In this document: positions 3,437-55,667 of the stretch, in pieces | How the letters are laid out: each line of letters begins with the position of its first letter | Numbering within the stretch: position 1 is the first letter of the stretch | IMG/VR virus record: IMGVR_UViG_3300009163_000042 | Location: 1-55,667 of that record | Length of the DNA: 55,667 bases | Strand: one strand, 5' to 3' | Source of the DNA: a virus | Taxonomy: Duplodnaviria > Caudoviricetes | Program-made: the position numbers and the translations under genes | Notes under the pieces: model-generated | Databases searched by the model: none | Told to the model about the DNA's origin: nothing | Seen by the model: the letters and a program-made list of their open reading frames with translations, nothing else

Positions 3437-5059
3437 TTAGACTTTAAACCAGAAGTCACCTTCTACCGCTGTTGTTGGCTCGGTGGTTTGAATAAATTTG
3501 CGAGAGGTTCCCCACATCGGTTGCTGCTCGTCAACATAAACTTTTGACGCTCTTGTAGAAACTGCATTAGAAATTGCATTATTCATACCTGTAGTTGTGG
3601 TATAATTAGTGAACGTAGTATCAGTTGCTGTCTTAGTATAATAACTAGTTAGTGCTGTAGTTATTTTACCATCTACTTGAGTAGAAGTAGAATAAGAAAC
3701 CAGCGCGGCTGCAATCGCAGCATCAGTAGCTACGCCAGTATAATAATCTAATAAAGTTTTACTAATTCTATTAACTACATATTGAGTATTAGCTATTTTC
3801 GTAGAACCAACTTCAATAAAAACAGGTGCTACAAGCGCATTATATCCAGGATCACCTTGAACTCTAAATCTTCCATCAGTTGTTACTGGTGTTGGAGTAG
3901 TTGGGAAAACATCATTTGCATCTTTTGTTAAAGCAGGAGCTGCAAGAGGTGCTTTTAAATTTAACGCAGTATTAATTTCTGTTCTATGTAACCAAACAAA
4001 TTTTGTGTTTGCAATTGTTGCGCTATTGCTAGAGATTAATGCATCAGGAGTTTGAGCGCTTCCAGTAAATACTGGATTTTCTAATGGCGCGAATGTAGAA
4101 GTTACACTATTTAAGCGATAAAATAAATTTGTAGTATTAGCCCAAACATCTCCATTTTCTGGAGTAGTAGGTTGAACGTTATATGGAGGAATTCTTAAAG
4201 AAGCATAATTAGCTGCACCAGGAGCTAATCTTAGTCTACCTGTCATTTGCTCTCCGCCGCCAATACCAACTACTGCAAGGTTAGTACGAGCACCTACTGC
4301 ATCAGTAGAACCAGTTCCACCATTAGTAATTTGAACTACACCATCGACATCAGTTGCAACGTCGGCGTGATCAGCATTATATGCATCATCGGCGTATCCA
4401 GTTAAGTGACCAATAAAATTAATTGCAGTTAAACTACTATCGCCGTCTCTTACTGCGATAGTATTTGGTGCAGATGAAAAAGAAGGTAGCTTATCTTGGA
4501 GTTTCCAAGAGTTTAAATTTGCTTGAGCAGCACTTAATGCATTGATTTTATCTCTTACAGAGGTTGAATTAAAATCAATTGTGTTTAGTTTTTGAGTTAA
4601 TGAAACTCCAAGATATTTAAAGTTGTTATCTAGTTCTTCAATGGTTAATGGATAACCCTTTTCAGCACGAAGAATAATAGAAGATGGAATGCTTGCACCT
4701 TGAATCTTTAAGTTAATAGAGAACTTTTCAAATTCTATATTTCCACTTCCTACTGTAGTACTTCCATTAGTACTAATCACCCAACCAGTATCTGCTAGGT
4801 TATCGCCTTCTTGAACGAATACAATCGTACCACCATCTACACTAGATGCTGCTGCAAAATCAGAAGCTCTAGTCCAACTTCCATTAGAACCAATTGTGTA
4901 TATGCCGTTCTGAGATCTATCAGTTTGTGCTTTAACTAAAATTCTATTACCAGATACGACAATGACTCCATCAATCCTACTTGTGCCTAATGTAAGATTG
5001 GTAGATAAGTTTACATACTCTAAAGTACCTAAACGTACAGGATTAAACGTTGTTGCCAT
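3437..5059 (-). CDS. tail fibre protein
   Basis: RILVKAQTDRSQNGIY...WTRASD N-terminal module, NGGTG, KAPLAAP, IANTQYV fibre motifs and C-terminal EPTTAVEGDFWFKV. Confidence 0.8.
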   Translation of the reverse strand: MATTFNPVRLGTLEYVNLSTNLTLGTSRIDGVIVVSGNRILVKAQTDRSQNGIYTIGSNGSWTRASDFAAASSVDGGTIVFVQEGDNLADTGWVISTNGSTTVGSGNIEFEKFSINLKIQGASIPSSIILRAEKGYPLTIEELDNNFKYLGVSLTQKLNTIDFNSTSVRDKINALSAAQANLNSWKLQDKLPSFSSAPNTIAVRDGDSSLTAINFIGHLTGYADDAYNADHADVATDVDGVVQITNGGTGSTDAVGARTNLAVVGIGGGEQMTGRLRLAPGAANYASLRIPPYNVQPTTPENGDVWANTTNLFYRLNSVTSTFAPLENPVFTGSAQTPDALISSNSATIANTKFVWLHRTEINTALNLKAPLAAPALTKDANDVFPTTPTPVTTDGRFRVQGDPGYNALVAPVFIEVGSTKIANTQYVVNRISKTLLDYYTGVATDAAIAAALVSYSTSTQVDGKITTALTSYYTKTATDTTFTNYTTTTGMNNAISNAVSTRASKVYVDEQQPMWGTSRKFIQTTEPTTAVEGDFWFKV

Positions 5060-5062
5060 TGA

Positions 5063-5302
5063 TTATTTTCCTCTAAGAACTTGGCTAAGCATTTGCTTTA
5101 TTTCTTCTATATCAGACTTTAGAGAAGCAATTTCTTGCGACTGTTGTTCTACTATTTGTTTTTGTTTTTTTTCTGAGAATCTTTTTCTCTGATATGCAGT
5201 AAATTCATCATCATTAGTAGAAACTATAGCATGAGAAGACATGTCTCTTACAAAAGATTCATGCCCTTCTACTTTTGCGAATTGTGGAATTACGCGGCGC
5301 AT
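5063..5302 (-). CDS. small coiled-coil protein
   Basis: KVEGHESFVRDMSSHAIVS...LKSDIEEIKQML; this type of gene commonly follows the DUF4815 gene in T4-like phages. Confidence 0.75.
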   Translation of the reverse strand: MRRVIPQFAKVEGHESFVRDMSSHAIVSTNDDEFTAYQRKRFSEKKQKQIVEQQSQEIASLKSDIEEIKQMLSQVLRGK

Positions 5303-8300
5303 GCAATTACTCTAAAATCTTTAATACGTGGTACCTGAGATTTATTTATGGATTTCATAACTAGTTTAACCATCACACTATCAAATGCATCTAATCCTTC
5401 AATATCACATGTGATATCAGTGAATTCAGTTAAAGACTTAGTATAGCCAGATTTTGGTTCAACTTTATTATAAGAAGATGCAATAAAGTCTCCGCTTACG
5501 CTTAAACCTGTTTTATAATATACTTCAACATTTGCATCTGGTGGAATAACTGCTGCAAACATAATTTTAAGCATCTCGGAAGGACGTGAGAAATTAATTT
5601 TCTTAGTCACATATTTACTATGAGTAGAACCTCCAGATGGAGCATAATCTGATTTAAAGTGAGATAACCAGAATATCTGTGCACCTATTGCATTAACAGT
5701 ATCTTGAATAGTGGTAACTCCATCAAATCCAACTAATGTGATATACAACACCGGAGTGCTTCCATTTAAAACTACTGATATGCTCTTAATAACCATATCG
5801 CGAGTGGCATTAGTAATTCCATTATACGTAAATCTTAGAACATGACCAGCTAATAAATTATTAGAGCAATGATTATATAGCGCAGTTTGAGCTAATGAGT
5901 CAACTGTTAATGATTTGCTGTCATCAGCATTAGTTACTAGAACAAATGGTTTGCCGCTTCCAATCTCTGCATTATGAGAATTTACAGTACCGCCACCAGT
6001 CAATCCACTACCAGAAGCTGATGCAGTAAATGTAATTCCAATTGATGCAGCTGTAGTATTAGACGGTCCTCCTACAGTAGAATAATTGGTACCGGCTGTT
6101 GCAATAGTGTAAGTTACACCCTGAATAATAGAAGTTGCAGCAACTCCATTTGCACCAGAAATTCTAAAATAATCTAACTCAGTGTCATTAACTGATAATG
6201 TTGGATCATCAATTTTATTACTTACGAGAGTCATTGCTAGTCTTCCTAGATCAATAACTGGAGAAACAGAATTTAAAGATGAAGAAGGATATAAGGTAGC
6301 AATAACACTTAATCCAGATGGGAATGTAGTGCTAGTATAATTCATAGAAGAAGGATATACTTTCGTTTCTGGGAAAGTATAATTTTCTTTTGGAATCATT
6401 GGAAATTCGCTTGAAACATCGCTATGGTTAATTACTTTAGCGCTATAAGAAATGCTTGTTCCAGGTGGAACGATTTCTGCAATCTCAATCATCGATGTCT
6501 GGAATTCATAGTTTTCAGTCGCAGTAATATACGAACCTCCAACTTGTCCACTTGCATTAGATGCAGTTGGGAACTCTACGATATAATAATCTAATTCTAC
6601 ATTTGAAATTGTATATCCAGTATTTCTGAATATTTCAGTTGCTGGAATTCCATTAATACTATCAATGACTTGACGAGAAGTAAATTTAACAACTTCGCCA
6701 TCGATCATACCATGATTTGAATGATTAACTCTACACTTCTTACTTCCACTAATAAAGTTAAATGGGTTAAAATCTAAAGTTTTAGCAGATAGTTTTGGAG
6801 GAATCAATTCAATTGATCTAGACTGAGAAGTATCAAATACTGCTCTACGAATTACAAACTTCATATCCTGCGTTTGATCAGCAGTCCATGTAGAACCATT
6901 CTGCGATTTGAATAGTACGCCATTATATGGCTGAGAACTAATTCTCACCTTTGTTGCTACATCAAGAGTATCTGTTTGTGAGATCCAAATTTTGTATATG
7001 TTAGAATCAGATAGCGCAACTAATGCGTATTCAACACCATTTTGTAAAAATACTGGAGAAGGGAATGTAAACGTTGTAGCTATTGTGCTATCTGTACTAG
7101 TAGCAATAGAAGCTGCTTTCTTCTCAACTCGTGAGAATGGAATAACAGCACTTCCTGGATAGCCATTTACAACTTCACGAATTTCGATTCTCATAGGAAT
7201 CTTTTCGTCTTTACTTTCAAAGAATAAATCAATTGAAGTAATAAATGCTCCACCTTCTTGTTGAACTAAGAAAGTTTGTGCTAGTGGATCGAACCAACCA
7301 GTATCACGCGTTACTCTATCGCTTGTGCTAACGATTGTATTTTGATCAGAAACTTGCGTAGAAGTAACTGAAGCTGTTCTTGTAGAAAGAATTGTACGTT
7401 GTTTAATTTCTACTAAACCATTTGCCTCATAAATCATTCCTCCACTCGTAGATTCTTGATCTCCGCGTGTTGCTGGATTTGTAGAAGAACTATCAGAGAA
7501 GCGAAGTTCACGCTTACCTGTTCTAAATTTAACTAATGGACTACTTGGAATTCTAAAAATACCAGTGATTAGACCAGTTAGCGAAGACACTAAACTTGTG
7601 TAATCTGTTCTTCCACCAGATACAAACTTTGCTCTTGGTTTTAAACCATTTGTTGAAAGATATTCGCCTTCAAAGTATGCATTACTTGCAGTCGAGAATT
7701 GACCGTTACCCTTAATGTTTAACACATGAAGATAATAATCAGTTCCATAAACTTCTTGTCCTACTACAATAGCAGTATTGCCAGTAGCAGTACCATTCAC
7801 GTATTCTTTAATTACTTCACCGTGGTTGAATGCTACTTCAACTTCTTCAGTAGTATGTTTAGGACCAATAACCTTAGCAGATACGCCAGATTCTGTTGCT
7901 GCTGTCCATGCTGGAGAAATTACTAAAGTATCATTATCAGTAATAGCAGTTACGGTGTATTTAGTCGGAGTTCCAACGTTTAGAATATCACCAACTTCAA
8001 CCTGTTGAGTAAATGCAGTTGCAAGTCCTTCAACGCTAGTGCTATTTAATGTTAGAGTGATTGTGCCAGAAATAGCCGTACCGTCACTATAGTATACAGT
8101 ACGTGTTGGTTCAGAAACTGCTGAGCCTGCATTACGCACTGTATCAAACTTAGCTTCATATCCATCTATTTTAGCAACTTTTAATCTAGTTGCTGGAGTA
8201 ATATAATCTTCTACAGATGTATTATCGAAATATGAATACATTCTTGTAGATGGTTTAAATCCATACCCCGTAAACAATACTGCTCGTGGACGAATATATG

Positions 8301-35754: not shown

Positions 35755-35829
35755 TGGTCCGGCGTAGAGGAATCGAACCTCTATAATGACTTTAGAAGAA
35801 TCATGTCCTATCCGTTGAACGAACGCCAG
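35755..35829 (-). tRNA. tRNA-Arg (anticodon UCU)
   Basis: CTGGCGT/ACGCCGG acceptor stem, GTTC-AACGGATA-GGAC D arm, TGATT-CT TCT AA-AGTCA anticodon arm, AGAGG-TTCGATT-CCTCT T arm, encoded CCA. Confidence 0.95.
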
Positions 35830-35837
35830 ATAGATCT

Positions 35838-35866
35838 ATTATATCAAATAGACGATTTATTGTACA
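35838..35866 (-). promoter_or_regulatory. promoter of tRNA-Arg(UCU)
   Basis: TGTACA-ATAAATCGT-CTATTTGA-TATAAT, 8 nt above the tRNA 5' end. Confidence 0.85.
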
Positions 35867-36486
35867 GGCTTTTTTCTTGCTTTTTTTACTGCTGGCTTTT
35901 TGGCTCTAGGCTTAGGCGTGGGCTTATTTGACATTTCTATCTTATTATTTAAACGTTTGACTACTTCTTCACCATCCATCCACATATCTTTATTTTCAAG
36001 CATAGCTTTTATCTCTACTTCTGTCATAAAGTCTTTATAGACTTCATTCATTAGACGCTCTGACCATTTACGTTCATGCTTAAGTTGATCTATCATTTCT
36101 CCACCTTTTCCAAATACTCCACCAGAATAATTGTGGAACATAAAGATAGAATGAGGAGTAACCTCAAATTTATGGCCGCATAAAAAAATCATAGTTGCAG
36201 CTGACATGCATGCACCTTCTACTGAACATACTACAGTAGCTTGGGTATCCGCAAGAACTCTCATAAATTGTATTGCAGTAAAAAGATCTCCGCCCGGACT
36301 ATTGATATAAATCTTAATTAAATCTGTCTCGTCAGCATGTCGAATAGTATCAAACCATTCAACATAATTATCTGCAGTATCAATCTCTTCCGTCAAATAA
36401 AATTCATAAAGATTAGCGATTGGTTTACCCGGAAAAAATCCATTCGAGTGAACTTTAGGTCTTCCAATTTCAAGTGTATCAGCCAT
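35857..36486 (-). CDS. clpP: ClpP-like serine protease
   Basis: IYINSPGG, GACMSAA (nucleophile Ser), FMFHN, KDMWM; basic C-terminal tail; start 36486 (GGAG SD) or 36498. Confidence 0.85.
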   Translation of the reverse strand: MADTLEIGRPKVHSNGFFPGKPIANLYEFYLTEEIDTADNYVEWFDTIRHADETDLIKIYINSPGGDLFTAIQFMRVLADTQATVVCSVEGACMSAATMIFLCGHKFEVTPHSIFMFHNYSGGVFGKGGEMIDQLKHERKWSERLMNEVYKDFMTEVEIKAMLENKDMWMDGEEVVKRLNNKIEMSNKPTPKPRAKKPAVKKARKKPVQ

Positions 36487-36507
36487 TATATCTCCCATTA
36501 ATATACA

Positions 36508-37382: not shown

Positions 37383-37658
37383 TTAGGTCGACTTTTTGCT
37401 AGTCTTTATATCTTGTTGCGGGATGTTTGAAACGAAACCATTTAAGACTTGTGCCTTTGTAATGATGTCGGTTTCGACAGGATAAGCAGGGAATCCTGGA
37501 TGATCAGGAATCGTGCCTCCATTGATTTTAGCAGATTCGACTTTAGTTTGCCAGTCGTTGCTAATTACTTCACGCTTACCGTAATATTCCTCGGAAAGCA
37601 TATCCTTCGCCATTTTTAAAAGTTCTAGGCGAATCTCGAACGGGGTTAAATTACTCAT
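37383..37658 (-). CDS. conserved phage hypothetical protein
   Basis: MSNLTPFEIRLELLKMAKDML...IITKAQVLNGFVS; strong AAGGAG SD. Confidence 0.85.
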   Translation of the reverse strand: MSNLTPFEIRLELLKMAKDMLSEEYYGKREVISNDWQTKVESAKINGGTIPDHPGFPAYPVETDIITKAQVLNGFVSNIPQQDIKTSKKST

Positions 37659-37690
37659 GTTTACTCCTTGTGTGTTATGAGTTGTGTGTA

Positions 37691-37718
37691 TGGTGATTTT
37701 GTAAGGTTCACCAACCTT
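37691..37718 (-). promoter_or_regulatory. H-type RNA pseudoknot in a 5' leader
   Basis: AAGG-T-TGGTGA-A-CCTT-ACAAAA-TCACCA: S1 AAGG/CCTT, S2 TGGTGA/TCACCA. Confidence 0.6.
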
Positions 37719-37722
37719 CTAT

Positions 37723-37730
37723 TATTTATT
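37723..37730 (-). promoter_or_regulatory. late promoter-like element (AATAAATA)
   Basis: Near-consensus element 4 nt upstream of the pseudoknot. Confidence 0.55.
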
Positions 37731-37733
37731 AGA

Positions 37734-38168
37734 TTAGAATTTTACAGCTAAACCCAAAGATCCAGTATTACCATTGTATTGGTTAATTCTATCTTGACCA
37801 TAGAAGCGCTCTACGCCTGCAATAAGATCTACACTCTTATTAAGAGCGAGTGTTGCCTTACCACCGACAGTAACACCATAGCCATTAGTCTTATCTGCTG
37901 CTACTAGCGTATCTTGATATACCAGTGAGCCGCCAGCGCTAAATACTACTGGTCCTAATTTAGTAATTTCAAACTGTTTGCCAACTGCATAGCGATTATA
38001 GCGATCTTCGATACGAGTATAGCTTAAACCAATTCCCTGATAAGTAGTGCCAATACGTACGCCAGACTTATCAGTTCCAGTGTAATCAGTTACACCAGAA
38101 ACTGTAACTTCTGCTGCGCTGGCAGCAAGTGATAAAGTTGCCAAAACAGCAATTGTAAATTTCTTCAT
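37734..38168 (-). CDS. small outer-membrane beta-barrel protein (OmpA/Ail/Lom-like)
   Basis: Sec signal MKKFTIAVLATLSLAASA-A, alternating amphipathic strands, C-terminal BAM-type motif GLAVKF. Confidence 0.75.
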   Translation of the reverse strand: MKKFTIAVLATLSLAASAAEVTVSGVTDYTGTDKSGVRIGTTYQGIGLSYTRIEDRYNRYAVGKQFEITKLGPVVFSAGGSLVYQDTLVAADKTNGYGVTVGGKATLALNKSVDLIAGVERFYGQDRINQYNGNTGSLGLAVKF

Positions 38169-38192
38169 ATTTTCTCCAAAAGTTAAAACAAA

Positions 38193-38232
38193 TAGTAGGT
38201 TATTCTTTTAAGGAAACCTACTAAAACCTTAG
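38193..38232 (-). other. RNA pseudoknot, near copy of the tmRNA post-tag pseudoknot
   Basis: CTAAGGTTTTAGTAGGTTTCCTTAAAAGAATAACCTACTA: AAGG/CCTT and AGTAGGTT/AACCTACT. Confidence 0.7.
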
Positions 38233-38238
38233 AAAAGA

Positions 38239-38430
38239 TTACTTCTTAGCTTCAGCTTTCTTTTCTACTTTCTTCTCATCTTTCTTCACTTCTGCTTTAG
38301 CAGGTGCTGCAGCAGAAACTGCTTTAGCAGGTGCAGAAGCAGGTGCAGCTGGTGCAGTAGCTTTTGCTGGCTCAGCAGCGAAAGATGTTAATGCAAATGC
38401 AGACAAAATTGTAGCGATCAATGTTTTCAT
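38239..38430 (-). CDS. small secreted Ala/Pro/Lys-rich disordered protein
   Basis: Signal peptide MKTLIATILSAFALTSFA-A, then APAKA repeats and a K/E tail; AAGGA SD. Confidence 0.8.
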   Translation of the reverse strand: MKTLIATILSAFALTSFAAEPAKATAPAAPASAPAKAVSAAAPAKAEVKKDEKKVEKKAEAKK

Positions 38431-38552
38431 TTTAATTTCCTTAGAAAAAGTTTTTAAATAATACTATCAACTTGTCAGATTTGTCGCAATGTGTTCAGTA
38501 CGAGATATGTAATGGTATCGGTTGCTGGCATCAAGCATAGACTAACTAACAT

Positions 38553-38743
38553 TGGTAGGTTATTCTGTTACGAGGAAACCTACCGAAACCCTAAGCCGAG
38601 TTTAGGCGGCTAATGCGAACTGTGAGTCGTTTGCTTTTACTTTTTTTTGCTTCTACGACCGGGTTACTCCCAATCCTACGGGTTTCACATTCCCGTGCTG
38701 TCCACTCATTTACTTGTTGCCCTGTCGAATCTAGATCACCCCC
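38553..38743 (-). ncRNA. ssrA: tmRNA coding piece of a permuted two-piece tmRNA; tag ANDSQFALAA* at 38634-38602
   Basis: 5' GGGGGTGATCTAGATTCGACAGGG, A-rich run before resume codon GCA, GCA AAC GAC TCA CAG TTC GCA TTA GCC GCC TAA, hairpin over the stop, downstream pseudoknot; 3' end approximate. Confidence 0.92.
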
Positions 38744-38778
38744 AACTAATTGCTTTCTTTGTGCCAACCATTTTAAAA

Positions 38779-38852
38779 TGGTGGATATAACGAGAATCGA
38801 CCTCGTATTTTACAAATTCGGAGTTTGCATGTCCTACTTGGACGATATACCC
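38779..38852 (-). tRNA. non-canonical tRNA-Arg (anticodon CCG) inside the tmRNA intervening segment
   Basis: GGGTATA TC GTCC-AAGTA-GGAC A TGCAAA-CTCCGAA-TTTGTA AAAT ACGAG-GTCGATT-CTCGT TATATCC ACCA (74 nt). Confidence 0.8.
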
Positions 38853-38863
38853 GAAAACAATTA

Positions 38864-38926
38864 GGTGGAGGTGGGGGGATTCGCACCCCCGTCCAGAACA
38901 CTTTTCTCTTTGCTTCATACAGCAAT
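38864..38926 (-). ncRNA. ssrA: tmRNA acceptor piece (T arm + 3' acceptor strand), upstream of the coding piece
   Basis: TGCTGT...GTGTTCTGGAC GGGGG-TGCGAAT-CCCCC CACCTCC A CC; CACCTCC pairs with GGGGGTG giving G3-U70; TGTTCT pairs with AGGGCA and TGCTGT with ACAGCA; 5' end approximate. Confidence 0.9.
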
Positions 38927-39499
38927 TCAATAACTAACTAACTTTCTATCTGCTAATGTGAATTCGCTATCTCTCACAAAAGCAGTTAAAATATATTTCG
39001 ATCCACTAATTATACTATCACCTCGATGATACATTGGTTCTTGCATATTATACTTAATAGTAAGACAGCTTCCACGTTTTGGCTTAATTCTCATATTAGA
39101 TTTATGAAAGATTGTATGCCCACCTTCAAAATCATCATTAAGATACATAATCATCGTAGCAATTCTTTGAGATTTAAACCCTGATGTTAGATCTGTGTGA
39201 AAGTCAACATAATCTCCAACATCATATCTTATGAGAAGAAGAGGCTCAATTTTCATAAAGTTTTCAACATTAAAAAAATCAGCTACTCGTTTTAACATAG
39301 AATCGAAGTATTCGTTATTACCATATTCGATTCTATGAATCTTACATTTTCTAGTATCATTAAATATTAGTTCACCATCAACACGAACTTTTGCATCTTT
39401 CCAATTATAATCTTTAGATAAGATCTCTTCAATATCTTTTTCACTTAACCAATTATCGTATTCGGTGATTAATGGATTTAAGCTATGGTATGTTACCAT
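38927..39499 (-). CDS. 2OG-Fe(II) oxygenase, prolyl-4-hydroxylase-like
   Basis: RYDVGDYVDFHTD, RIATMIMYLNDDFEGGHTIF, YHRGDSIISGSKY. Confidence 0.9.
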   Translation of the reverse strand: MVTYHSLNPLITEYDNWLSEKDIEEILSKDYNWKDAKVRVDGELIFNDTRKCKIHRIEYGNNEYFDSMLKRVADFFNVENFMKIEPLLLIRYDVGDYVDFHTDLTSGFKSQRIATMIMYLNDDFEGGHTIFHKSNMRIKPKRGSCLTIKYNMQEPMYHRGDSIISGSKYILTAFVRDSEFTLADRKLVSY

Positions 39500-39526
39500 T
39501 ATATACTAATCGTGATTATTTGTACA
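39498..39526 (-). promoter_or_regulatory. sigma70-type promoter overlapping the P4H start codon
   Basis: TGTACA-N17-TATAAT; the AT of TATAAT is the AT of the ATG. Confidence 0.7.
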
Positions 39527-39527
39527 A

Positions 39528-39929
39528 TTATTTTAGAACATCAAAGATATCATTCGTATCAATAGAAGTTGATTCCACCATCAACGTTTGATTCTTCAAC
39601 ATTCCATCCCAAACAGTCAATTTGCTTTCACGCTCTAACTTTTCTATGACGGGCGTATGTATAGCCTTAAGATGAGATAAGAAATTTTCTCTAGTAACAC
39701 CGTGAGATGAAAACGCCCAATCTAATACCGTATTAGCGTCCAAATCGTCTATTTCAATGAAGTTTTTAAGTTGAGTAAACTTTATAGTTGATTCTCCACC
39801 AGCTACACTAGTATGATCACCTCTATTGAACACCACTGACCATGTAACTTTATTGATTACGTTTTTATGTAAATCAGTATTAGTTACAAAGATTTCGTTT
39901 ATATATGCTTCGTGTTTAATATCATTCAT
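39528..39929 (-). CDS. hypothetical protein
   Basis: VINKVTWSV...FIEIDDLDANTVLDW resembles small proteins often seen near phage fibre genes. Confidence 0.6.
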   Translation of the reverse strand: MNDIKHEAYINEIFVTNTDLHKNVINKVTWSVVFNRGDHTSVAGGESTIKFTQLKNFIEIDDLDANTVLDWAFSSHGVTRENFLSHLKAIHTPVIEKLERESKLTVWDGMLKNQTLMVESTSIDTNDIFDVLK

Positions 39930-53612: not shown

Positions 53613-53950
53613 CGTGATATCCTTACTTCCGAATCCGGATACTTCAAGCAAGCTCGCCAGTAATTATAAACAAACTTAACGAGTCCTTCATACGAACCCC
53701 ATCCATTCTCAGGATTGAACTTCCTAAACTTTTCAGCATGAGAGTCCAAGTTCATGTAACCTTCCTCGAGATACTTTGTCAAGTCGCGAGCAAATTTCAG
53801 ACCATGTTCGTCGGGTCGCCAAAGCACGTCATAGAGTGTAAGGCCATCACCGACATGACACTCGCCTGCCATCGTATTAAGGTTGTGCGTGATGTTATAG
53901 TTCCACTGTGATACAGGTTCTACTACCATCAGATCTACATCTAGACTCAT
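53609..53950 (-). CDS. conserved phage hypothetical protein
   Basis: MSLDVDL, NITHNLNTMA, LWRP, FNPENGWGSYEG. Confidence 0.8.
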   Translation of the reverse strand: MSLDVDLMVVEPVSQWNYNITHNLNTMAGECHVGDGLTLYDVLWRPDEHGLKFARDLTKYLEEGYMNLDSHAEKFRKFNPENGWGSYEGLVKFVYNYWRACLKYPDSEVRISR

Positions 53951-54213
53951 TCTTCTTCTCCATAAAAAAATTCACGAATCGCTACATAACTGTCAAGACC
54001 GCACTGAACATAACCATCCCAATGTGGGTCCTTCATCATAACTTCATCTTCCAGAACAGGTCTATATTGCTCTTGAACCTGTCGCATACATTCTTGTATA
54101 ATCAACTTAGCAAAAGCTTTCTCGTACATTTCCTTAGTTACGAGAAAGCTAGGAGTGTTCTCGATAACATCCTCGTAAGCCTGTTTTGCAAGTTCTTTAA
54201 TTTTATCGTTCAT
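53947..54213 (-). CDS. MNERI-family small protein, copy 3
   Basis: MNDKIKELAKQA...AFAKLIIQEC...IREFFYGEEE. Confidence 0.75.
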   Translation of the reverse strand: MNDKIKELAKQAYEDVIENTPSFLVTKEMYEKAFAKLIIQECMRQVQEQYRPVLEDEVMMKDPHWDGYVQCGLDSYVAIREFFYGEEE

Positions 54214-54423
54214 ACGTAATACTCCACACGATGTCCACAATCTTTACATAACAACAGGTAGTACGCATAGAAGTGTACAGCATGCTGGAAGGTGCTCTTC
54301 TTACTAGATTCCACTAGTTCTGTCATAGTCACGTGCTCCTCTTGAACCCTCTTGAACTGGTCGGCGAAGGGGCTCGTGGAGTACGTTATTCGAGTTACAC
54401 TTATCGCAATAAATGATTTTCAT
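54210..54423 (-). pseudogene. zinc-ribbon gene frameshifted by a 10-bp tandem duplication
   Basis: cctcttgaac x2 at 54338-54357; removing one copy fuses MKIIYCDKC... to ...LCKDCGHRVEYYV* (67 aa). Confidence 0.75.
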
Positions 54424-54529
54424 AAATTCCCCATATAATAAATCCCAACACTCCAAGCTCTACTATGCTAGTAAGCAGGACGGCTAGAGAACTAGCCGGA
54501 TTATTCCGTATGTCTTCTAGTATATTCAT
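54401..54529 (-). CDS. small single-TM protein (42 aa)
   Basis: MNILEDIRNNPASSLAVLLTSIVELGVLGFIIWGIYENHLLR*; TAATG coupling to the upstream gene. Confidence 0.6.
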   Translation of the reverse strand: MNILEDIRNNPASSLAVLLTSIVELGVLGFIIWGIYENHLLR

Positions 54530-54738
54530 TATAATCCGTATTGTCTTGCTATAGCCAATGCAGCCCAAGAAGCGCCGAGGGCTTCCTTATGAGCTTCGTC
54601 CTTTTCTAGAGAATCAGCCATTCTATCAGCACAAGCCAAGCATTCATTGATGATCAACTCGGCGAACTTTTGACGATCCAACCAACCGGTCTTAGGATCT
54701 GATGCCTGTAATGCTAACAATGTGATTCGTTCGTTCAT
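54529..54738 (-). CDS. MNERI-family small protein, copy 2
   Basis: MNERITLLALQA...KFAELIINEC...IARQYGL. Confidence 0.75.
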   Translation of the reverse strand: MNERITLLALQASDPKTGWLDRQKFAELIINECLACADRMADSLEKDEAHKEALGASWAALAIARQYGL

Positions 54739-55019
54739 TACATACTCCAATATGTTTCAGAAGCTGGATTGCAGCACCAAGGCGTATCAGCAGGAATCTG
54801 TACATCCTTGCCGGTCATCAGGCTCTTAACCGTTTTCATAGTAGGATGATACTCGAACCGCCAGCCTTTTGTTGCAGGATACATGTCATAGACTTCGTTA
54901 CTTTCGCGACGCATACCTGCCTCATCGCGATTAGCCCAGACAGTAGTACTATAAAGGCGCTCGCCGGTTTTACACCGACCGTCACGCTTATAAATGTACA
55001 TAGTATAATCTTGCTTCAT
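54738..55019 (-). CDS. conserved phage hypothetical protein
   Basis: IYKRDGRCKTGERL, TVKSLMTGKDV, TPWCCNPASETYWSM. Confidence 0.8.
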   Translation of the reverse strand: MKQDYTMYIYKRDGRCKTGERLYSTTVWANRDEAGMRRESNEVYDMYPATKGWRFEYHPTMKTVKSLMTGKDVQIPADTPWCCNPASETYWSM

Positions 55020-55045
55020 GATATTCTCTCCGTTTTGATAGATCT

Positions 55046-55074
55046 ATTATATCAAATTGACGAATTGTTGTACA
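55046..55074 (-). promoter_or_regulatory. sigma70-type promoter with conserved spacer
   Basis: TGTACA-ACAATTCGT-CAATTTGA-TATAAT. Confidence 0.85.
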
Positions 55075-55083
55075 CCGTTATTG

Positions 55084-55305
55084 TCATAGTTTCTCTCCAC
55101 AATGCGGACACAGTTTGGTACTAGCTTTACGCATTTCTTTCAGTGTCTTGTTTAGTTTCTTAGCATCAGTCAGCTGACTTTTAATTTTCTTACGATCTCG
55201 TTCGTGTTTGGCCTTGCCGAGTTCAGCTTTAAGATGCAGTTTCATTTTCTGAAGACGACCTTCAAAGATCTCTATAAAGCCTGTTATGCCAGTTGACTCA
55301 CTCAT
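55084..55305 (-). CDS. coiled-coil protein with C-terminal CPHCG
   Basis: 73-aa ORF; LCPHCGEKL. Confidence 0.7.
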   Translation of the reverse strand: MSESTGITGFIEIFEGRLQKMKLHLKAELGKAKHERDRKKIKSQLTDAKKLNKTLKEMRKASTKLCPHCGEKL

Positions 55306-55526
55306 TCTTCAACTCCGAAATGTCCTTTAATCAACTTGCCAAAGGTTACGTATGGTAGTGAAATATCGTTTTCATCTACGAGCCGGGCGCATTCCCGCAC
55401 AATCAACTCGGCGAACTTTGCTAAATCTGTTTGAGTGGTATAATAGATTGGTTCAGGTTCTAATGCCAAATCGTCATCAAATTCTAAACCAGCCTGTTCA
55501 GCAAGTTCTCGAATTCGTTCGTTCAT
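55302..55526 (-). CDS. MNERI-family small protein, copy 1
   Basis: MNERIRELAEQAG...KFAELIVRECA...IKGHFGVEE. Confidence 0.78.
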   Translation of the reverse strand: MNERIRELAEQAGLEFDDDLALEPEPIYYTTQTDLAKFAELIVRECARLVDENDISLPYVTFGKLIKGHFGVEE

Positions 55527-55667
55527 ACCGTTTTTCCTCTTCTTCTGATTGCTGCTTGCAACGAACAAAAATCGTCATGTGCTTTACGGGTTGTCTCCGC
55601 GTGTTTGTTGCTATGGCAATGAATAGACCACCACTTTCGTGCAAATTCTTCAACCTCCCTAGCACAC
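55523..55667 (-). CDS. 3' end of a small hypothetical gene (truncated by the window)
   Basis: ...CAREVEEFARKWW...QAAIRRRGKTV*; ATGA overlap with the next gene. Confidence 0.55.
   Translation of the reverse strand, partial: CAREVEEFARKWWSIHCHSNKHAETTRKAHDDFCSLQAAIRRRGKTV

What the first reader, a model, noticed from the sequence alone, without database searches (positions are those of the whole stretch)
38553..38926. Phage-encoded circularly permuted two-piece tmRNA with a tRNA gene nested in its intervening segment
Seen: on the minus strand the tmRNA 3' module (T arm GGGGG-TGCGAAT-CCCCC, CACCTCC-A-CC; ~38926-38864) comes first. A 120-nt spacer follows, then the 5' module (GGGGGTGATCTAGATTCGAC from 38743), the tag ANDSQFALAA*, and a pseudoknot. 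No T arm or acceptor strand follows the tag. The halves pair into a 7-bp acceptor stem with the alanine identity pair G3-U70, plus helix-2 pairings. The spacer holds a complete 74-nt cloverleaf with CCA. Established: permuted two-piece tmRNAs occur in alphaproteobacteria, marine picocyanobacteria and a betaproteobacterial lineage (Dechloromonas), where the intervening segment is excised during maturation. Inference: here the excised piece is itself a tRNA, so one precursor yields three RNAs, and tRNA processing cuts (RNase P, 3' trimming) could also open the tmRNA. I know of no described example of this nested layout, but cannot confirm novelty without a search.
Basis: partly seen in the sequence, partly recalled or inferred. 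Interest (0 to 1): 0.93.

Follow-up and report, generated by a model that had tools for sequence, protein, structure and literature searches.

The report
Phage split tmRNA gene carrying a tRNA
A freshwater T4-like phage carries a two-piece ribosome-rescue RNA (tmRNA) gene whose discarded middle segment holds a complete, conserved tRNA gene; this is real, recurs in other phages, and has been noted once in print, so it is a new example rather than a new kind of thing.

Summary
ARAGORN calls a permuted tmRNA at 38511-38955(-), tag ANDSQFALAA, with a tRNA (anticodon CCG) at 38779-38852(-) inside it. Rfam gives tmRNA_permuted 119 bits, beta_tmRNA 95.9 bits and tRNA 46.8 bits. No second acceptor half lies downstream.

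Two other assemblies (L158, L205) carry the same layout between different neighbouring genes. The tRNA is the best conserved segment (96%; flanks 41-42%), and compensatory changes support the tmRNA T stem, the tRNA T stem and a 12-bp stalk that closes the spacer.

Nesting recurs independently: cyano-type phage tmRNAs with tRNA-Asn (7 contigs) and an alpha-type one with tRNA-Arg(TCT).

The novelty claim fails in part. A 2025 tmRNA database paper notes one tRNA-Ala inside a permuted tmRNA spacer, and phage two-piece tmRNAs are well known. Processing into three RNAs is plausible but untested.

Two twists. The nested tRNA has the alanine identity pair G3-U70 with A73. CGG is also the phage's rarest codon (0 in 46 ORFs of at least 100 aa), and two of its few uses sit at invariant arginines.

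The parts
38864..38926 (-). tmRNA acceptor piece: helix-2 5' strand, T arm, acceptor 3' strand CACCTCC, A73, CC. The terminal A is not encoded.
   Evidence: Rfam RF04321 and RF01850 alignments; ARAGORN tmRNA*. The T stem changes from GGGGG/CCCCC to GGGAG/CTCCC in L158, a compensatory change. 90% identical to L158.
38853..38863 (-). IVS 5' linker; 5' strand of the stalk that closes the spacer
   Evidence: MFE fold and RNAalifold: 12 pairs between 38864-38853 and 38757-38746. Two pairs changed on both sides and one on one side between the window and L158.
38779..38852 (-). Nested tRNA: anticodon CCG, encoded CCA, acceptor stem with G3-U70 and A73, 5-nt D loop, T loop GUCGAUU
   Evidence: ARAGORN; Rfam tRNA 46.8 bits. 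71 of 74 bases identical to L158, with a compensatory A-U to G-C change in the T stem. G3-U70 seen in the pair table and in the tRNA survey.
38744..38778 (-). IVS 3' linker; its last part (38757-38746) is the 3' strand of the stalk
   Evidence: Only 46% identical to L158, with a 12-nt indel outside the stalk.
38553..38743 (-). tmRNA coding piece: acceptor 5' strand GGGGGTG from 38743, helix 2, first hairpin, tag frame 38634-38602 (ANDSQFALAA, stop), stop-codon hairpin, terminal hairpin ending at 38554
   Evidence: ARAGORN tag; Rfam alignments. Paired changes between the window and L158 in the first hairpin, the stop-codon hairpin and the terminal hairpin. The Rfam beta model match ends at 38547.
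38927..39499 (-). Upstream neighbour, a 2OG-Fe(II) oxygenase ORF whose stop codon ends 1 nt before the acceptor piece; context only
   Evidence: Pfam PF13640, 43.5 bits; ORF list.

Best explanation
This is a working phage copy of a beta-type, circularly permuted (two-piece) tmRNA gene. Its 120-nt intervening segment carries a selected, structurally intact tRNA (anticodon CCG) on a 12-bp stalk.

**Inferred mechanism**
1. The three parts are transcribed as one precursor.
2. The stalk and the tmRNA acceptor stem bring the two tmRNA halves together while the tRNA folds on its own.
3. Host RNase P cuts 5' of the tRNA (G38852) and 5' of the coding piece (G38743).
4. Exonucleases trim the 11-nt trailer left on the acceptor piece back to ..ACC, and the CCA-adding enzyme supplies the missing A.
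5. The tRNA's 3' end is trimmed to its encoded CCA.

The products would be an acceptor piece of about 63 nt, a 74-nt tRNA and a coding piece of about 190 nt.

**Roles**
- The tmRNA works with host SmpB and host AlaRS.
- The tRNA most likely supplies decoding of CGG as arginine. CGG is the rarest codon of this phage, yet it sits at invariant arginines of a conserved small phage protein.
- The spacer of such phage tmRNA genes is a tolerant cargo slot, and the tRNA is one kind of cargo.

**Shown:** anatomy, conservation, covariation, recurrence, codon facts.
**Inferred:** co-transcription, every cleavage, charging and decoding.
For: - **Calls and scores:** ARAGORN and Rfam.
- **Independent assemblies:** L158 (viral contig) and L205 (metagenome contig) have the same order, but with a PD-(D/E)XK nuclease ORF upstream and a Cpn10 ORF downstream instead of the window's neighbours.
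- **Identity to L158 by segment:** tRNA 96%, acceptor piece 90%, tag region 92%, flanks 41-42%.
- **Covariation:** 3 of 43 predicted pairs in the acceptor-IVS segment changed on both sides with pairing kept, and none are broken. There are further paired changes in the tmRNA T stem and three coding-piece hairpins.
- **Precursor fold:** -50.6 kcal/mol, z = -5.4, 0 of 200 shuffles as good.
- **No second acceptor half downstream**.
- **No terminator-like site on the minus strand** in 38100-39700 and no strong promoter between the parts.
- **CGG usage:** 0 of 15,679 codons in 46 ORFs of at least 100 aa; the next rarest codon is AGG with 15. CGG occurs 41 and 134 times in the other two frames.
- **Where CGG is used:** the 4 CGG codons in real small ORFs include two at positions that are Arg in 120 of 120 homologues.
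- **Recurrence:** cyano-type with tRNA-Asn in 7 viral loci and alpha-type with tRNA-Arg(TCT) in 1.
- **Variable spacer:** the closest tmRNA relatives (L074 and L078, acceptor piece 98% identical) have an unrelated 89-nt spacer.
- **Published basis:** permuted tmRNA transcripts are cleaved by tRNA-processing enzymes (PMC11915505, passage).
Against: - **No RNA evidence.** In four runs no contig covers 38754-38848, and contigs cannot show RNA ends anyway.
- **Thin comparative base.** Lineage A has only two distinct sequences, so covariation rests on one comparison.
- **The tRNA is atypical.** It scores 46.8 bits against 68.7 and 73.4 for the nested tRNAs of the other lineages. It has a 5-nt D loop with one G, and G instead of U at the first T-loop position.
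- **Mixed identity signals.** It carries G3-U70 with A73, G1-C72 and G2-C71, the alanine identity set (recalled knowledge). Among the other 124 unique non-Ala tRNAs of all fetched loci, 0 have G3-U70. By the Rfam alignment, position 20 of the D loop is deleted; A20 is recalled as a main ArgRS determinant in E. coli. Arginine charging is therefore not assured.
- **Little apparent need.** CGG is so rare that demand for the tRNA looks small.
- **No SmpB in the window.** The record is only about 35% complete.
- **Start of the precursor is open.** The window has no convincing promoter just upstream of the acceptor piece, whereas L158 has a TATAAT there.
Confidence: 0.6

Rival explanations
1. The cloverleaf is kept mainly as a processing or folding module for the tmRNA. 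It would act as an RNase P entry site that frees the acceptor piece's 3' side, not as a decoder.
For: - CGG is absent from 46 ORFs of at least 100 aa.
- The D and T loops are atypical.
- The tRNA sits on a conserved stalk stacked on the tmRNA acceptor stem.
- Other phage spacers hold T-arm-like minihelices instead of a full tRNA, for example L068 and L002.
Against: - The anticodon stem and loop are fully conserved between the two lineage-A sequences and canonical, with U33 and a purine at 37.
- Most related phage tmRNAs mature without any tRNA in the spacer: 2 of 164 tmRNA calls in 182 loci had one.
- CGG codons do occur at invariant Arg sites, so a decoder has a use.
Confidence: 0.15
2. The nested tRNA is charged with alanine through G3-U70 and A73, fully or partly, and reads CGG. 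It would then be a mistranslating or dual-identity tRNA made together with the alanine-charged tmRNA.
For: - G1-C72, G2-C71, G3-U70 and A73 are present and identical in both lineage-A sequences.
- G3-U70 occurs in 2 of 3 tRNA-Ala calls and in 0 of the 124 other non-Ala tRNAs among 129 unique tRNAs from the fetched loci.
- Position 20 is deleted in the Rfam alignment.
- CGG is the only sense codon absent from the larger ORFs.
- That G3-U70 suffices for AlaRS recognition is recalled textbook knowledge, not a call.
Against: - Two of the four CGG codons in real ORFs of the window lie at positions that are Arg in 120 of 120 homologues, so Ala insertion would damage the phage's own conserved protein.
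- C35 and G36, recalled as Arg determinants, are present.
- The D-arm 3' half resembles that of the phage's tRNA-Arg(TCT).
- No charging data exist.
Confidence: 0.1
3. The tRNA is a recent passenger, an insertion into a tolerant spacer, with no selected role and on its way to decay.
For: - The spacer is hypervariable among related phage tmRNAs.
- The tRNA score is low and its loops are atypical.
- Only two distinct sequences were found in 8 viral scans and 1 metagenome scan.
Against: - The tRNA is the most conserved segment (96%), while the adjacent 3' linker is 46% and the flanks 41-42%.
- The only stem change is compensatory.
- The module is kept intact between different neighbouring genes.
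Confidence: 0.1
4. Assembly artefact: a tRNA-bearing fragment was joined into a tmRNA gene by misassembly.
For: In run X1, exact-match contigs stop inside the tmRNA gene (records 1 and 8), and no contig of the four runs covers 38754-38848. Conserved tmRNA parts are repeats in metagenomes.
Against: - The same order and junctions are present in two other assemblies from different samples, L158 and L205, with sequence differences that keep base pairing.
- The stalk pairs the two spacer ends across the tRNA.
Confidence: 0.02

Closest known systems
Permuted tmRNA gene with a tRNA-Ala gene in its intervening sequence (entry GCA-2688965__sp002688965.2 of the 2025 tmRNA database paper, PMC11915505; passage seen)
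   Same: An intact tRNA gene lies between the acceptor piece and the coding piece of a permuted tmRNA gene.
   Different: - That case is a tRNA-Ala in a nominally archaeal MAG; the authors suspect misbinning.
- It was described in one sentence as unique.
- This case is in a T4-like phage, is of the beta type, has anticodon CCG, and has a covarying stalk.
- I could not see that entry's sequence (supplements are closed, and my one genome-contig scan did not hit it), so no direct comparison was made.
Phage-encoded two-piece tmRNAs, e.g. OM43 phage Melnitz and pelagimyophages (PMC9004378; passages seen)
   Same: A T4-like aquatic myophage carries a complete permuted ssrA. It is embedded among co-directional genes, with no SmpB seen here.
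   Different: - Melnitz's tmRNA is alpha-type and is reported with a glutamine riboswitch.
- No tRNA inside the spacer is mentioned in the passages I read.
- Its Table S1, listing 53 two-piece phage tmRNAs, could not be opened.
Betaproteobacterial two-piece tmRNA (Rfam RF01850)
   Same: - Order of the pieces.
- Acceptor stem with G3-U70.
- T arm, helix 2 and tag ending in ALAA.
- Score above the curated cut-off.
   Different: - The model's consensus spacer is about 30 nt; here it is 120 nt (109 nt inserted relative to the model).
- The window's match, 95.9 bits, is weaker than L158's 132 bits.
- The terminal model hairpin is missing.
Cyanomyophage tRNA arrays with a cyano-type permuted tmRNA (S-SSM7 GU071098, Sf-FS3 PV340856)
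   Same: The tmRNA pieces sit among tRNA genes and are presumably released by the same enzymes. Uncultured relatives (L184, L187, L188, L190, L194-L196) have tRNA-Asn inside the spacer.
   Different: - The tmRNA class, host group and nested tRNA differ.
- Linkers are very short and there is no stalk.
- The two cultured phages have no nested tRNA.

Membership tests
Permuted (two-piece) tmRNA, Rfam RF04321 / RF01850 | Score above the curated cut-off of the family model | tested here: met
   RF04321 scores 119 bits (cut-off 47) and RF01850 scores 95.9 bits (cut-off 84). ARAGORN calls tmRNA*.
Permuted (two-piece) tmRNA, Rfam RF04321 / RF01850 | Gene order: 3' half of the tRNA-like domain (T arm, acceptor 3' strand, ACC) upstream of the 5' half and tag frame, with no acceptor half after the tag | tested here: met
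   Sequence and model alignment. No CACCYCCA on the minus strand downstream. The sensitive Rfam scan of 37600-38760 finds only the coding piece.
Permuted (two-piece) tmRNA, Rfam RF04321 / RF01850 | 7-bp acceptor stem formed between the two pieces, with G3-U70 and A73 | tested here: met
   CACCTCC pairs with GGGGGTG, including a U-G pair at 3-70. The stem is invariant between the window and L158, so it has no covariation of its own.
Permuted (two-piece) tmRNA, Rfam RF04321 / RF01850 | Tag reading frame with an alanine resume codon and a hydrophobic ..LAA end | tested here: met
   ANDSQFALAA plus stop at 38634-38602. L158 has ANDAQFALAA.
Permuted (two-piece) tmRNA, Rfam RF04321 / RF01850 | Pseudoknot(s) flanking the tag | tested here: inconclusive
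   Hairpins before and after the tag keep pairing through paired changes. Pseudoknot pairings were not modelled. L158 lacks 24 nt of the region before the tag.
Permuted (two-piece) tmRNA, Rfam RF04321 / RF01850 | Maturation into two RNAs, alanylation, SmpB-dependent tagging | not testable with these tools
   No SmpB in the window, which is 35% complete. No RNA ends are obtainable.
tRNA (Rfam RF00005) | Cloverleaf scoring above the cut-off, with a 7-bp acceptor stem, a 7-nt anticodon loop, U33 and a purine at 37 | tested here: met
   46.8 bits (cut-off 29); ARAGORN. The MFE fold and the alignment fold both give the cloverleaf.
tRNA (Rfam RF00005) | Canonical elbow elements (G18 G19 in the D loop; T54 in the T loop). 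The list of elements is recalled. | tested here: not met
   The D loop has 5 nt with a single G. The T loop is GUCGAUU in the window and GUCAAUU in L158.
tRNA-Arg isoacceptor | Arg anticodon with C35; A20 in the D loop (identity rules recalled for E. coli) | tested here: inconclusive
   The anticodon CCG has C35 and G36. Position 20 is a deletion in the Rfam alignment. The G3-U70 and A73 alanine determinants are present. No isotype-specific model was on hand.
Permuted tmRNA gene with a tRNA in its intervening sequence (PMC11915505) | An intact tRNA gene on the same strand between the acceptor piece's 3' end and the coding piece's 5' end | tested here: met
   The tRNA at 38852-38779 lies within the spacer 38863-38744.

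The most novel reading that the evidence does not exclude
The nested RNA would be a hybrid-identity tRNA. It has an arginine anticodon (CCG) on a body that carries the alanine identity set (G1-C72, G2-C71, G3-U70, A73) and lacks position 20.

It would be released from the same precursor as the alanine-charged tmRNA and, at least partly, alanylated. The phage would then deliver an Arg-to-Ala reader of CGG, a codon it has almost purged from its own genes.

More broadly, the spacer of phage permuted tmRNA genes would be a dedicated slot from which tRNA-processing enzymes release extra functional RNAs: tRNAs here, and mini-mRNAs for small peptides in relatives.
Probability: 0.1. Interest if true: 0.8.

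Novelty: new member of a known kind. Interest (0 to 1): 0.45.

Why it matters
This shows that the 'waste' segment of a permuted tmRNA gene can carry a selected, functional-looking gene. It has happened several times in phages, in all three permuted tmRNA classes.

That fits a view of the two tmRNA halves as independent units of a tRNA-style processing array. It also gives a natural system for asking how RNase P and 3' trimming define the ends of two-piece tmRNA.

For annotation, tmRNA and tRNA finders that discard overlapping calls will lose one of the two genes. The cultured cyanophages S-SSM7 and Sf-FS3 have their tmRNA unannotated in the records.

The G3-U70 pair on a CGG-reading tRNA gives a concrete, cheap charging experiment.

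Tried and rejected
**Dead ends and uninformative results**
- Phage isolate genomes: blastn of the whole locus and of the tRNA alone found no match.
- Read laying on 4 runs (X1, X2 DNA; X15, X16 RNA): many contigs from relatives cover only the conserved tmRNA parts. None covers 38754-38848. Exact-match contigs of X1 stop inside the gene. This says nothing about the tRNA, its expression or its ends.
- The look-up of sequencing runs: no run holds half of the sampled words or more. Labels are freshwater or lake, but I draw no habitat claim beyond that.
- Lineage-specific scans found only L158 and L205. No free-standing copy of this tRNA was found.
- Two-gap scan with a longer second gap: 0 hits.
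- Genome-contig scan: 5 loci. Four are chance matches without a tmRNA. L199 is a tRNA array with a TLD-only mini-tmRNA, not a nested layout. The published tRNA-Ala example was not hit, so it could not be compared.
- The ARAGORN 'tRNA-Val(gac)' inside the spacers of L207, L224 and L228 has no Rfam tRNA match at E up to 1. I did not count it.
- The ARAGORN 'tRNA-Tyr' overlapping the start of the L191 tmRNA lies on the acceptor piece. I dropped it as a likely miscall.
- 'No cognate codon at all': rejected. ORFs of at least 50 aa hold 5 CGG codons. One is in a spurious ORF antisense to the tmRNA. Four are in two real small ORFs.
- Other Rfam families in the spacers of L002-L007 and L010: none.
- Literature searches behind the novelty statement. 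Papers read by passages only: PMC9004378, PMC4131195, PMC11915505, PMC3037559. Supplements are closed. The supplementary tables of PMC11915505 and Table S1 of PMC9004378 may list further nested cases that I could not see.
Full report
**What is there**

- An acceptor piece at about 38926-38864 holds a T arm, the acceptor 3' strand CACCTCC, A73 and CC. The next base is T, so the last A of CCA is not encoded.
- A 120-nt spacer follows (38863-38744).
- The coding piece starts at G38743 with GGGGGTG.
- The tag frame is at 38634-38602, and the last hairpin ends at 38554.

ARAGORN calls a permuted tmRNA (tag ANDSQFALAA) at 38511-38955 and a 74-nt tRNA with anticodon CCG at 38779-38852 inside it. Rfam gives tmRNA_permuted 119 bits (cut-off 47) and beta_tmRNA 95.9 bits (cut-off 84). 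The overlapping tRNA hit is hidden there by clan competition. Scanned alone, it scores 46.8 bits (cut-off 29).

Nothing like a second acceptor half follows the tag.

The window is an IMG/VR virus record of 55,667 bases, estimated 35% complete. It encodes T4-like baseplate and tail proteins. It has 35% G+C.

**It is not an artefact, and it is under selection**

Pattern scans found the same layout in viral contig L158 and in metagenome contig L205. L205 is identical to L158 over the locus. Rfam scores L158 at 132 bits on beta_tmRNA.

The neighbours differ. The window has a 2OG-Fe(II) oxygenase ORF upstream and a small secreted-looking ORF downstream. L158 has a PD-(D/E)XK nuclease-like ORF upstream and Cpn10 downstream.

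Identity between the window and L158, by segment:

| Segment | Identity |
|---|---|
| Flanks | 41-42% |
| Acceptor piece | 90% |
| Nested tRNA (71 of 74) | 96% |
| 3' linker (with a 12-nt indel) | 46% |
| Tag region | 92% |
| Post-tag hairpins | 92% |

The differences keep the structure.
- The tmRNA T stem changes on both sides.
- The tRNA T stem changes from A-U to G-C.
- Three coding-piece hairpins change in pairs.
- In the RNAalifold table of the acceptor-spacer segment, 3 of 43 pairs changed on both sides and none is broken.

With only two distinct sequences this is suggestive, not a statistical proof.

**Shape of the precursor**

The MFE fold of 38874-38736 gives three stacked elements: the tmRNA acceptor stem, then a 12-bp stalk made of the two ends of the spacer (38864-38853 with 38757-38746), then the cloverleaf on top. 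The energy is -50.6 kcal/mol, z = -5.4.

The stalk holds two of the three both-side changes. Related phage tmRNA spacers also have complementary ends. A closing stem therefore looks like a general feature of these spacers.

**The tRNA itself**

It has a canonical anticodon stem-loop. Its D loop has 5 nt with one G, and its T loop starts with G. By anticodon it is tRNA-Arg(CCG).

Its acceptor stem reads G1-C72, G2-C71, G3-U70, followed by A73. That is the alanine identity set, which I cite from memory of the AlaRS literature. Among 129 unique ARAGORN tRNAs from all fetched loci, G3-U70 occurs in:
- 2 of 3 tRNA-Ala calls,
- the two versions of this tRNA,
- 0 of the other 124.

Codon use adds to the picture.
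- CGG is the only sense codon with no occurrence in 46 non-overlapping ORFs of at least 100 aa (15,679 codons; the next rarest is AGG with 15).
- The trinucleotide occurs 41 and 134 times in the other two frames of the ORFs of at least 100 aa (47 ORFs as selected).
- Position-specific base frequencies predict about 35 CGG codons.
- With ORFs of at least 50 aa there are five CGG codons. One lies in a spurious ORF antisense to the tmRNA. Two lie in each of 54738-55019 and 55302-55526.
- Both of those small ORFs have hundreds of homologues.
- In the first, both CGG positions are Arg in 120 of 120 listed homologues. In the second, the positions are variable (Arg in 69 and 11 of 120).

So the phage does need CGG read as arginine, but rarely. 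That favours an ordinary arginine decoder for a codon that the host probably reads poorly. It argues against an alanine-inserting tRNA. The G3-U70 pair stays unexplained.

**The layout recurs**

- **Group A, beta-type, anticodon CCG:** the window and L158.
- **Group B, cyano-type, tRNA-Asn(GTT):** L184, L187, L188, L190, L194, L195 and L196. tRNA-Thr lies just upstream. Scores are cyano_tmRNA 121-125 bits and tRNA 68.7 bits.
- **Group C, alpha-type, tRNA-Arg(TCT):** L185. Scores are alpha_tmRNA 96.8 bits and tRNA 73.4 bits. ARAGORN itself made no tmRNA call there.

The unbiased scans found nesting in 2 of 164 tmRNA calls, so it is rare. The two-gap scan was designed to find it and cannot give a frequency.

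The cultured cyanophages S-SSM7 and Sf-FS3 have the cyano-type tmRNA without a nested tRNA. In Sf-FS3 the order is tRNA-Thr, tmRNA, tRNA-Asn, tRNA-Ala. Group B thus looks like a rearrangement within a tRNA array.

The nearest tmRNA relatives of the window have unrelated spacers. Different tmRNA classes and different tRNAs point to independent origins.

**What is in print**

- PMC11915505 (2025; passages only) states that permuted tmRNA transcripts are cleaved by tRNA-processing enzymes. It also reports, as a 'unique feature' of one nominally archaeal entry, an intact tRNA-Ala gene within the intervening sequence.
- PMC9004378 (passages only) reports 53 two-piece tmRNAs among phage isolates, mostly aquatic.
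- PMC4131195 (passages) lists only one-piece phage tmRNAs.
- My searches found no paper that describes nested tRNAs in phage tmRNA genes, a stalk, or a G3-U70 tRNA with an Arg anticodon in a phage.
- Supplements were closed, and the library lacks most subscription journals.

**Mechanism and rivals**

Most likely (0.6) the locus makes one precursor that host RNase P, 3' exonucleases and the CCA-adding enzyme turn into a two-piece tmRNA plus a CGG-reading tRNA. The tRNA is cargo in a tolerant slot. Its 5' cut also shortens the trailer of the acceptor piece. All cleavage and charging steps are inferred.

Rivals:
- a processing-handle role without decoding (0.15);
- an alanine-charged CGG reader (0.1);
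- a decaying passenger (0.1);
- misassembly (0.02).

**Verdict**

The novelty claim is overstated: this is a new, phage-borne member of a layout that has one published precedent. It has extra points of interest in its recurrence, its stalk and its mixed identity signals.

Noticed in passing
L209, L212, L219, L223, L225, L226, L229, L213, L220, L221, L214, L208, L215 (spacers listed); L031, L025, L164, L087, L106, L095, L062, L046, L016, L020, L005, L007: Many spacers of phage beta-type permuted tmRNA genes hold a Shine-Dalgarno-like AAGGA, an ATG and a closed mini-ORF of about 22-47 codons. Several encode hydrophobic peptides. Some form families that differ in DNA but keep the peptide, for example L209 versus L223 and L213 versus L220. 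In spacers of 75-135 nt, 58 of 115 unique sequences have an ATG-ORF of at least 18 codons, against 43.9 +/- 5.1 in shuffles. Literature search found nothing on this. It may be more novel than the nested tRNA.
   Followed up: partly
L184, L187, L188, L190, L194, L195, L196; L203 (S-SSM7), L204 (Sf-FS3): Uncultured cyanomyophage contigs carry the order tRNA-Thr, tmRNA acceptor piece, tRNA-Asn, tmRNA coding piece. The GenBank records of S-SSM7 and Sf-FS3 do not annotate their permuted tmRNA and place hypothetical-protein CDSs over it.
   Followed up: partly
L185:4030-4405: An alpha-type permuted tmRNA (Rfam 96.8 bits) has tRNA-Arg(TCT) at 4162-4238 on a stalk in its spacer. ARAGORN misses the tmRNA. 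Its T loop looks unusual.
   Followed up: partly
L199 (contig of a MAG labelled Candidatus Iainarchaeum), 3731-7806: The contig holds 22 tRNA genes, a 66-nt TLD-only mini-tmRNA (RF00023, 75 bits, 6308-6373) directly after tRNA-Thr(GGT), and a ROOL RNA (298 bits). This looks like a phage or mobile tRNA array binned into an archaeal MAG.
   Followed up: no
window 38852-38779: The nested tRNA carries G3-U70 with A73, which is otherwise seen only in tRNA-Ala among 129 unique tRNAs of the fetched loci.
   Followed up: partly
window 53947-55568 (-): A higher-G+C stretch (42-46%) holds small ORFs. It includes three paralogues of one small protein family (53947-54240, 54529-54750, 55302-55568) and a widespread 93-aa protein (54738-55019; 557 homologues). 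All four genuine CGG codons of the window lie here.
   Followed up: partly
window 35857-36498 (-): A ClpP-like ATP-dependent protease ORF (Pfam CLP_protease 54.7 bits; phrog_1827 222 bits) lies 2 kb from the tmRNA. tmRNA tags are classic ClpXP degrons (recalled). It could instead be a head maturation protease.
   Followed up: no
L068, L002, L041 spacers: Some spacers hold T-arm-like minihelices (GGTTCGA-type loops) without a full cloverleaf. These may be remnants of nested tRNAs or processing signals.
   Followed up: no
L158:10395-10440 (-) versus window 38927-38990 (-): L158 has a TATAAT hexamer a few bases upstream of the acceptor piece. The window has no comparable promoter there, and the upstream ORF's stop codon abuts the tmRNA.
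   Followed up: no
window 35755-35829 (-): A second tRNA, Arg(TCT), has a canonical shape and an encoded CCA. The 3' half of its D arm resembles that of the nested tRNA.
   Followed up: no
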